Assembly: GCA_951406725.2 (NCBI GenBank)
Contig: OX597831.1
Location: forward strand, 58,404,001-58,468,000
Direction of reading: 5' to 3'
DNA: 64,000 bases
Origin: Octopus vulgaris
Taxonomy: Eukaryota
This document shows positions 398 through 36,060 of this stretch, piece by piece (positions within the stretch are counted from its first letter, which is position 1; every line of letters begins with the position of its first letter). A program made the position numbers and the translations under genes. Below the pieces are notes generated by a model. It searched no databases and was not told the origin of the DNA. It saw nothing but the letters and a program-made list of their open reading frames with translations.

Positions 398-912
398 ATT
401 CCAATATTAAAATCTAGTATTTCAATTTGCAAAAGCTTTTTAAAGAAGATGTTTGATTTTTTGATAGACGTAGGTTTATAATTTGACCGGATGGAAAAAT
501 GGGTAGTATGTTCGGCATTCTGTAGCTCATATTACATAACAACTAACATTTATTGGTCTTCAAGAATACTACTTACTCTTACGCCATGATTCAATTTATT
601 TGTCTGCCTTTAGCAAGATAATTCTAGATTTCATTTCAAGTTTATCGAAGTGGATAAGGAATATTTGAGAATACGCTTGAAATATGACATCATTTAGTCA
701 CGTGGAGGTTGTTACATTAACAGTATGGTACTCATCAGTAAGATAGAACCTGCAAGGCATAAATACATCACCTCTTTTTCTTAGGTTAAGATATTAAATA
801 AACTTGCCGAAGCTATAGTAACATCAAGGAAGCATTTAAGTTCCCAAATAAAGTTACTTAGCTTAACAATTTCAATATTATTTTTAGTCACAGGAATATA
901 TATATATATATA

Positions 913-1078
913 CAGGGAAAGTTTACGAAAAAAACAAAAGACGAAGACAGGTGGTGCACAAAACAAACAGATGTATTAGTATAACGCTCAGAAATAGAAA
1001 AAGTCTTTTACGTTTCGAGCTTACGCTTTTCTACAGAAAGAGACACAGAATAAACAAGGAGAGAAACAAGGAGAGAAA
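913..1078 (-). mobile_element. Short HHR-motif repeat, family D copy (probably Penelope pLTR-derived)
   Basis: Near-identical to 1713-1901 and 38807-38997; flanked by (TA)n on both sides; HHR motif at 1005-1040 has a stem II mutation. Confidence 0.8.
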
Positions 1079-1166
1079 TATATATATATATATGTAACAT
1101 GTGGTATAATTATAAACAGGGTAAATTTTAGCCATTTCTCCGCAGACTGAAAAACAATGATGAATA

Positions 1167-1209
1167 ACCCTAATTGCTTTTCGAAACTTTTTGGCTTCTC
1201 ATCAGATGC
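1167..1209 (-). ncRNA. Minimal type-I hammerhead ribozyme motif (tandem copy 1)
   Basis: Minus strand GCAU-CUGAUGA-GAAGC caaaaa GUUUC-GAAA-AGCAAUUA-GGGU; core intact, stem I imperfect. Confidence 0.7.
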
Positions 1210-1471
1210 GCTTACGCTATTCTGACAGTCTCCAAAGAAACAAGCAGCCAAGCTGTCTATATACTCAACAAATGCAGCAGTTACTCTCTGAATGAATCCT
1301 TAATTTTGCATACCGAAACTGTTTTACACTCTCTAAATAGCAACGGCCTGACAACAGGGATCTTAGTCCATACAGTATCAAGGTATGATATAAGATATAC
1401 GTAACATGTGGCATAATTATAAACAGGTCAAAATATGGGTATTTCTCCGCAGACTGAAAGAATGATGAACA

Positions 1472-1514
1472 ACCTTAATCGATTTTTGAACCATATTGGG
1501 TTCTCATCAGCGGC
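1472..1514 (-). ncRNA. Minimal type-I hammerhead ribozyme motif (tandem copy 2, G12A)
   Basis: Minus strand GCCG-CUGAUGA-GAACC caauau GGUUC-AAAA-AUCGAUUA-AGGU; palindromic stem III AAUCGAUU. Confidence 0.65.
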
Positions 1515-1604
1515 GTCTACATCATTTTGATAATCTCCAGAAAAACAAGCAACCAAACTGTTTATATACTCAACAGATGTATGTGTGTATGTGTGTGTAT
1601 ACAC

Positions 1605-1637
<33 letters not shown>

Positions 1638-1659
1638 TGTATGTATGTATGTATGTATG

Positions 1660-1712
<53 letters not shown>

Positions 1713-23914: not shown

Positions 23915-24058
23915 TGCCATGATAGATCGTTAGCCACTACACACATTTTTTCTCTACTTTTTTCTCTCCTTGTTTCTCTCCTTGTTTTTTCTGTGTCCCT
24001 TACTGTAGAAGAGCGTAGGCTCGAAACGTAAAAGACTTTTTCTATTCCTGAGCGTTAT
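23915..24058 (+). mobile_element. Family D HHR-motif repeat (3'-truncated)
   Basis: gccatgatagatcgttagccactac...ctgtagaagagcgtaggctcgaaacgtaaaag. Confidence 0.85.
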
Positions 24059-35648: not shown

Positions 35649-36060
35649 TATTTCTTTATTGCCCACAAAGGGCTAAGCATAGAGGGGACAAACAAGGACA
35701 GACAAAGGGATTAAGTCGATTACATCGAACCCAGTGCGTAACCGATATTTAATTTATCGACCCTGAAAGGATGAAAAGCAAAGTACACCTCGGCGGAATT
35801 TGAACTCAGAACGTAACAGCAGACGAAATACCCATTTCTTTACTACCCACAAGGGACTAAACACAGCGAGGACAAACAAGGACAGACAAACGGATTAAGT
35901 CGATTATATCGACCCCAGTGGGTAACTGGTACTTATTTAATCGACCCTGAAAGGATGAAAGGCAAAGTCGACCTCGTCGGAATTTGAACTCAGAACGTAG
36001 CGGCAGACTATGTACCGCTAAGCATTTCGCCCGGCGTGCTAACGCTTATGCCAGCTCGCC
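35649..36060 (-). mobile_element. Dimeric SINE A
   Basis: Full monomer 35833-36060 joined to a 5'-truncated monomer 35649-35832 at gacgaaatacc|catttctttactaccc. Confidence 0.9.

What the first reader, a model, noticed from the sequence alone, without database searches (positions are those of the whole stretch)
1094..1575. Tandem hammerhead pair spaced 305 nt apart: candidate cephalopod retrozyme-like unit
Seen: a diverged tandem repeat with a minus-strand type-I HHR in each copy and predicted UUA cleavage sites near 1476 and 1171 (305 nt apart). Stem II covaries (GAAGC/GUUUC vs GAACC/GGUUC). Copy 2 has a palindromic stem III (AAUCGAUU). Each copy has a different lesion, and combining them gives a fully paired stem I (GCCU/AGGU) and an intact core. 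Established: non-LTR retrozymes and Penelope pLTRs are tandem units of a few hundred nt whose minimal HHRs self-cleave as dimers. Inference: this is a relic of a small self-cleaving, possibly circularising, RNA element.
Basis: partly seen in the sequence, partly recalled or inferred. Interest (0 to 1): 0.75.

Follow-up and report, generated by a model that had tools for sequence, protein, structure and literature searches.

The report
Decayed octopus hammerhead retrozyme copy
This is a worn-down copy of a small, protein-free repeat that is scattered through an animal genome (likely an octopus) and carries a predicted self-cutting RNA motif; it likely spread as a small RNA circle copied by Penelope-type enzymes, a kind of element already known from other animals.

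Summary
Window 1094-1580 (minus strand) is one full 305-nt unit plus a 5'-truncated 180-nt copy; predicted hammerhead cleavage sites lie at 1476 and 1171. Both hammerheads carry lesions. The unit belongs to a dispersed, non-coding family: 70 exact intact-motif hits, control 0; 240 with stem II free. The family majority has an intact canonical (not minimal) type I hammerhead on a long stem-I hairpin, and folds as a well-paired circle (z -3.8). An older subfamily keeps core, loop II and stem III unchanged (0 of 25 positions differ, against 42 of 240 outside the ribozyme). Insertions end at a fixed point beside dinucleotide repeats (58 of 70) and often exceed one unit, as Penelope-type copying would give. 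No autonomous parent was found in 50 GIY-YIG loci. RNA reads are sparse, in both directions, with no end at the cut site. Cleavage and circles are untested. Verdict: a new, old, decayed member of the known animal non-LTR retrozymes. The scan reported other, younger octopus retrozyme families before, on other DNA.

The parts
1094..1400 (-). Full 305-nt non-coding unit (307 bases here), 89% identical to the family majority; fixed 3' end at 1094
1401..1580 (-). 5'-truncated partial copy (unit positions about 126-305), head to tail with the full unit, 90% identical to the majority
1466..1516 (-). Type I hammerhead, upstream copy: palindromic stem III intact, G12 replaced by A at 1487, predicted cut after 1476; predicted inactive
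1161..1211 (-). Type I hammerhead, downstream copy: core intact, stem I and loop III damaged, predicted cut after 1171; predicted weak or inactive
1171..1475 (-). Cut-to-cut monomer of 305 nt: the RNA that would be released and could be circularised (inferred)
   Evidence: circular fold of the family majority
1125..1255 (-). Long imperfect hairpin extending hammerhead stem I (about 38 pairs in the majority); still folds in this copy (z -3.1)
1079..1093 (.). (TA)n tract at the 3' end: likely target
1581..1712 (.). (TG)/(TATG)/(TA) microsatellite at the 5' junction
1251..1338 (-). Approximate place of unit positions 63-150, the non-ribozyme part that is homologous to a widespread 86-nt minisatellite elsewhere in the genome

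Best explanation
The stretch is a decayed 1.6-unit insertion of a dispersed, non-coding 305-nt repeat family with a type I hammerhead motif, and it is likely a non-autonomous retrozyme copied by Penelope-like enzymes. Shown: family, fixed 3' end, variable 5' truncation, head-to-tail overhangs, dinucleotide-repeat neighbours, hammerhead kept across subfamilies. Inferred mechanism: a source transcript longer than one unit is cut at two hammerheads (probably helped by dimer formation through the palindromic stem III); a host ligase closes the 305-nt monomer into a circle; a Penelope-like GIY-YIG endonuclease nicks a (TA)n or (CA)n tract; the reverse transcriptase primes 76 nt downstream of the cut site, where the RNA itself carries an AU-repeat stretch, and copies round the circle for less than one lap up to about 1.8 laps. 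This copy has since decayed and is probably inactive.
For: Family: 52 matches from 40 scored candidates; 70 exact and 240 relaxed motif hits, controls 0. Non-coding: longest stop-free stretch 57 aa in the tandem majority; GC 38%. Circular fold -80.7 kcal/mol, 70% paired, z -3.8, 0 of 100 shuffles. Old versus young majority: 0 of 25 changes in core, loop II and stem III against 42 of 240 outside the ribozyme, Fisher p 0.019; both majorities fold the stem-I hairpin, z -4.3 and -5.0. Stem II pair A-U/C-G: 12 of 51 rows changed on both sides; 80.8% of cells paired against 39-51% for slid controls. In 30 copies picked by their 5' half alone, the core differs at 19 of 424 letters, 33 expected from base composition, p 0.004. 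Of 70 distinct insertions, 58 end at the unit end, 47 of those 58 beside a dinucleotide repeat (background 15%), 46 exceed one unit, 9 span two cut sites. A linear cut-to-cut monomer cannot template these in one pass (inference). The genome holds intact 781-aa RT + GIY-YIG frames ending in (TA)n.
Against: No cleavage or circle was shown. Raw RNA reads are few (156, 175, 120 from about 6% of each of three runs), in both directions, mostly under 95% alike, 79-88% running on into other sequence, with no pile-up of ends at the cut site. RNAalifold finds no consensus structure on the 51 decayed copies, and the covariation shuffles ignore relatedness; pairs with a double change were reached by 33 of 500 shuffles. 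The whole ribozyme region is not significantly better kept than the rest between subfamilies (4 of 51 against 42 of 240, p 0.09), and the old set was found with a query that has an intact core. No Penelope-like element sharing the 3' end was found. The more-than-unit counts are inflated by how loci were picked: 9 of 24 in the set picked by ribozyme motif only. Rfam gives no useful hit.
Confidence: 0.78

Rival explanations
1. The unit is the orphan pseudo-LTR of an autonomous Penelope-like element that is rare or lost; the copies are truncated insertions of that element.
For: Partial-plus-full tandems, 5' truncation and microsatellite targets are Penelope traits (PMC8557442, passages). Only 50 distinct GIY-YIG loci of 6136 first-look candidates were examined. 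Xenopus retrozymes are related to pLTRs (10.64898/2026.07.22.740005).
Against: Upstream of the full unit lies the unit's own 3' end, not a coding body (29 of 30 exceed one unit). The unit profile hits none of 52 records from 50 GIY-YIG loci. Three RT or EN fragments among 82 hammerhead-bearing loci are 1.2-3.4 kb away on the other strand; none in 30 further loci. The hammerhead is canonical, not minimal.
Confidence: 0.1
2. Same element and same enzymes, but the template was an uncut linear read-through transcript of a tandem source locus, not a circle; the hammerhead cut rarely or served only to trim ends.
For: Tandem loci exist. 8 of 9 Xenopus dimers did not cleave in vitro. The pile-up of 5' ends at unit positions 281-287 (17 of 70) sits on a TA-rich stretch and can come from microhomology with the target or from alignment slipping into it.
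Against: Core, loop II and stem III are kept across subfamilies and among copies, which implies that cleavage mattered for spread. No long young array was seen to serve as source: 1 adjacent pair among 70 exact hits.
Confidence: 0.09
3. The pair is a local duplication or chance likeness to a hammerhead with no ribozyme role.
For: Both window copies are damaged; Rfam and RNAalifold give nothing.
Against: Hundreds of motif hits with control 0; the same tandem junction at independent loci; structured conservation.
Confidence: 0.03

Closest known systems
Metazoan non-LTR retrozymes (Cervera and de la Pena 2020, PMC7229834; read: parts 2-4 of 6, results and discussion; supplement not seen)
   Same: Canonical type I hammerhead with 2-bp stem III and palindromic tetraloop; unit within 150-450 nt; GC under 50%; no ORF; tandem copies; well-paired predicted circle with the ribozyme exposed; Penelope-like elements in the same genome.
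   Different: Mostly dispersed insertions of 0.2-1.8 units, not long arrays; old and decayed (7 of 61 sampled hammerheads keep core and all three stems); no abundant RNA seen; no cephalopod term in that paper's main text.
Vertebrate non-LTR retrozymes as Penelope derivatives (Li, Clavereau, Pollet, bioRxiv 10.64898/2026.07.22.740005; read: parts 1-3 of 5; supplements closed)
   Same: Similar unit size; many monomers and dimers; proposed mobilisation by Penelope-like elements.
   Different: No molluscs sampled there; no related pLTR found here; the window copy fails their 'active' definition.
Penelope-like pseudo-LTRs with minimal hammerheads (PMC4209133, parts 1-2 of 4; PMC8557442, passages)
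   Same: Fixed 3' end, 5' truncation, partial tandem, microsatellite targets.
   Different: No RT or GIY-YIG frame inside or collinear; no extra nucleotide before stem II; long stem I; two-armed inverted insertions not seen as a rule.

Membership tests
Metazoan non-LTR retrozyme | Type I hammerhead with intact core in the unit | tested here: met
   Family majority and 70 exact hits; window copies are damaged
Metazoan non-LTR retrozyme | Unit of 150-450 nt, GC under 50% | tested here: met
   305 nt, GC 38%
Metazoan non-LTR retrozyme | Head-to-tail tandem copies | tested here: met
   46 of 70 insertions exceed one unit, 9 span two cut sites; longest contiguous young copy about 1.8 units; an older locus holds about 2.5
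Metazoan non-LTR retrozyme | No coding frame | tested here: met
   Longest stop-free stretch 57 aa, longest Met-started 39 aa
Metazoan non-LTR retrozyme | Highly self-paired predicted circle | tested here: met
   z -3.8, 0 of 100 shuffles; a prediction on the majority sequence
Metazoan non-LTR retrozyme | Two consecutive complete hammerheads (the 'active' rule of Li et al.) | tested here: inconclusive
   Not met by the window copy; exact core motifs 304 nt apart at G000:C14:59984907 and 59985211, where the upstream unit is partial
Metazoan non-LTR retrozyme | Target-site duplication longer than 4 bp when present | tested here: inconclusive
   Junctions lie mostly in microsatellites; read by eye only
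Metazoan non-LTR retrozyme | Expressed as linear and circular monomer RNA | tested here: inconclusive
   Sparse two-direction reads, no end at the cut site; these libraries may lose small circles
Metazoan non-LTR retrozyme | Self-cleavage in vitro | not testable with these tools
   Needs a bench assay
Canonical type I hammerhead | Tertiary contact between loops 1 and 2 | not tested
   Loop II is unchanged between subfamilies (0 of 6); the contact itself was not modelled
Penelope-like element pLTR | Flanks or is collinear with an RT + GIY-YIG frame | tested here: not met
   0 of 50 GIY-YIG loci; none collinear in unit loci; sample is small
Penelope-like element pLTR | Minimal hammerhead: extra nucleotide before stem II, short stem I | tested here: not met
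   G10.1 follows A9 directly; stem I extends to about 38 pairs; definition

The most novel reading that the evidence does not exclude
The insertions are a fossil record of a Penelope reverse transcriptase running round a ribozyme-made RNA circle: it primes at an AU-repeat stretch built into the circle that pairs with nicked (TA)n DNA, and tends to stall just after one lap (27 of 46 overhangs are 3-26 nt), where it must displace its own product. The same element also seeded a genome-wide 86-nt minisatellite from its non-ribozyme arm.
Probability: 0.3. Interest if true: 0.55.

Novelty: new member of a known kind. Interest (0 to 1): 0.3.

Why it matters
It extends animal retrozymes to a likely cephalopod genome and adds insertion-site evidence (fixed 3' end, microsatellite targets, more-than-unit copies) for the proposed but unproven link to Penelope-like enzymes. 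Two subfamilies of different age show the ribozyme was kept over a long time. The class, its circles and the Penelope hypothesis are already in print, and this copy is a relic; younger families in the same genome are better material for experiments.

Tried and rejected
Rfam: no useful hammerhead hit in the window or four loci. RNAalifold on 51 copies: no consensus pairs. A 1.6-kb-plus repeat (about 22 of the 40 scored candidates; 12 of the 70 exact hits) carries the hammerhead and 3' end behind a different upstream sequence; considered as the autonomous parent and rejected: no RT or EN similarity inside it, and the repeat continues past the unit's 3' end, so it looks like passive capture. The young 781-aa Penelope-like family and 20 more divergent GIY-YIG loci share no sequence with the unit. 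Two-armed inverted insertions, a lead from earlier notes: 2 of 172 loci had opposite-strand hits, one a fragment 1.2 kb away and one the minisatellite; one further divergent pair lies 1.6 kb apart; not a rule here. Sequencing-run search: no RNA holder listed. One search used wrong coordinates and was discarded. The 915-nt length for L006 is an alignment artefact across an inserted repeat; it is one of the 46 and of the 9. The 1482 first-look candidates are not a copy number and may include minisatellite loci. Earlier-findings search by sequence returned nothing.

Full report
Observation. On the minus strand the window holds two CUGAUGA cores at 1510 and 1205, each followed by stem II, a GAAA box or its remnant, a short stem III and a UUA triplet whose last nucleotide lies at 1476 and 1171. 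The repeat is one full unit (1094-1400) and a 5'-truncated copy (1401-1580), 80% alike, between a (TA)n tract and a long microsatellite. The upstream hammerhead has G12 replaced by A; the downstream one keeps the core but has damaged stem I and loop III. Each copy is 89-90% identical to the family majority, which fits independent decay from identical starting copies (inference).

Family. The window lies in a genome of 2.8 billion bases in 227 contigs. That it is an octopus is my inference from size and repeat content; earlier notes of the scan say the same. The unit gave 52 matches from 40 scored candidates. An exact hammerhead pattern gave 70 hits and a pattern with free stem II gave 240, both with control 0. 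Twelve of the 70 lie in a separate composite repeat. The 37 aligned young copies are 89-95% identical to a 305-nt majority. An older set of 29 rows is 67-81% identical to it.

Ribozyme. The majority has an intact core, a 5-pair stem II with a 6-nt loop, a 2-pair stem III closed by a palindromic tetraloop, and GCCU/AGGU at the base of stem I. By the definitions in PMC4209133 (parts 1-2 read) this is the canonical metazoan type I form, expected to work best as a dimer, and not the minimal form of Penelope repeats. Stem I continues as a long imperfect hairpin in both subfamily majorities (z -4.3 and -5.0, 0 of 200 shuffles each; window copies z -3.1 and -1.75). Between subfamilies 0 of 25 positions of core, loop II and stem III differ against 42 of 240 outside the ribozyme (p 0.019), while the whole 51-nt ribozyme region differs at 4 of 51 (p 0.09). 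One stem II pair shows a change on both sides in 12 of 51 rows, 8 of them A-U to C-G. Among 30 copies chosen by the 5' half only, the core differs at 19 of 424 letters against 33 expected (p 0.004). Against this, RNAalifold finds no common structure in the decayed copies, the shuffle control ignores relatedness, and Rfam gives no useful hit. Of 61 distinct sampled hammerheads 31 keep the core and 7 keep core and all stems. The cut-to-cut majority monomer folds as a circle at -80.7 kcal/mol, 70% paired, z -3.8. It has no reading frame over 57 codons.

Insertion anatomy. Of 70 distinct young insertions from three searches (six composite loci left out), 58 end at the unit's 3' end, 47 of these beside a dinucleotide repeat (background 15%), 46 exceed one unit and 9 span two cut sites. 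In the least length-biased set, picked by ribozyme motif alone, the figures are 17, 15, 9 and 2 of 24. The fixed 3' end lies 76 nt downstream of the cut site, and the unit continues there with an AU-repeat stretch. A linear monomer cut at both ends could not template copies that run back across the cut site, so the template was a circle or an uncut tandem transcript (inference). Overhangs beyond one unit are 3-26 nt in 27 of 46 cases; this may mark a stall after one lap, but the 5' ends cluster on a TA-rich stretch, so microhomology or alignment slip can explain part of it.

Partner. The genome has intact 781-aa frames with RT and GIY-YIG domains whose 3' ends carry a minimal hammerhead-like motif of the U3-A8 type and run into (TA)n. 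The unit's profile hits none of 50 distinct GIY-YIG loci, of 6136 first-look candidates, and no RT or EN remnant is collinear with the unit. Mobilisation in trans by a Penelope-like element is therefore inferred from anatomy; no partner is identified.

Expression. Reads from about 6% of each of three raw RNA runs were laid on one unit at 85% likeness: 156, 175 and 120 reads, in both directions, mostly under 95% alike, most running on into other sequence, and no pile-up of ends at the cut site. This looks like passive transcription within host RNA. It does not exclude small circles, which such libraries can lose.

Literature. Animal non-LTR retrozymes, their circles and the proposed Penelope link are described in PMC7229834 (parts 2-4 of 6 read) and bioRxiv 10.64898/2026.07.22.740005 (parts 1-3 of 5). 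Microsatellite targeting and partial tandems of Penelope-like elements are in PMC8557442 (passages); Penelope abundance in coleoids is in PMC8967140 (passages). Six searches listed no paper whose title or abstract start describes an octopus retrozyme; supplements were not seen and may list cephalopod hammerheads. The scan's own notes hold 24 findings with the same key words, among them 422- to 536-nt octopus retrozyme families; these are unchecked leads, and none matched this unit by sequence.

Verdict. A real, decayed copy of a further animal non-LTR retrozyme family: new member of a known kind. It works like a retrozyme by every sequence feature that could be tested; cleavage and circles are untested. 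Interest 0.3.

Noticed in passing
L169:2300-3223 (minus); arrays at many G000 places, e.g. C13:66373856-66377792: A widespread 86-nt minisatellite is homologous to unit positions 63-150, the non-ribozyme arm; 565 matches from 39 scored candidates. Contigs of run X17 show go-back joints of 64-84 nt and a depth peak over the same part. Direction of transfer not tested.
   Followed up: partly
window 911-1080, 1710-1867, and near 24003, 36473, 38874, 50507, 57113, 61351: A second, abundant repeat of about 165 nt (8 copies in the window, 0 by chance) with a hammerhead-like motif whose core reads CUGUAGA or CUGUUGA, an extra A before stem II and a 3' end in (TA)n; it flanks the finding on both sides.
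   Followed up: partly
L091-L096, L152-L173: A composite repeat of over 1.6 kb (about 22 loci, 88-96% alike) has captured the hammerhead and 3' end; it has a GC-rich fixed 5' end, a tRNA-like stretch downstream (Rfam tRNA hit) and, in several copies, a nested element with inverted ends. RNA reads show its junction.
   Followed up: partly
L098:1245-3587 and L099:1164-3506: Young Penelope-like family with intact 781-aa RT + GIY-YIG frames in many places, a cysteine-rich linker, tandem repeats in the 3' region and a U3-A8 minimal hammerhead-like motif before (TA)n.
   Followed up: partly
L147:1492-2742 (minus): An old-subfamily locus with four ribozyme-bearing pieces, about 2.5 units in tandem plus one separated by other repeats.
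   Followed up: no
window 35650-36008: A 184-nt tandem duplication (2 copies, 86% match) of another repeat.
   Followed up: no
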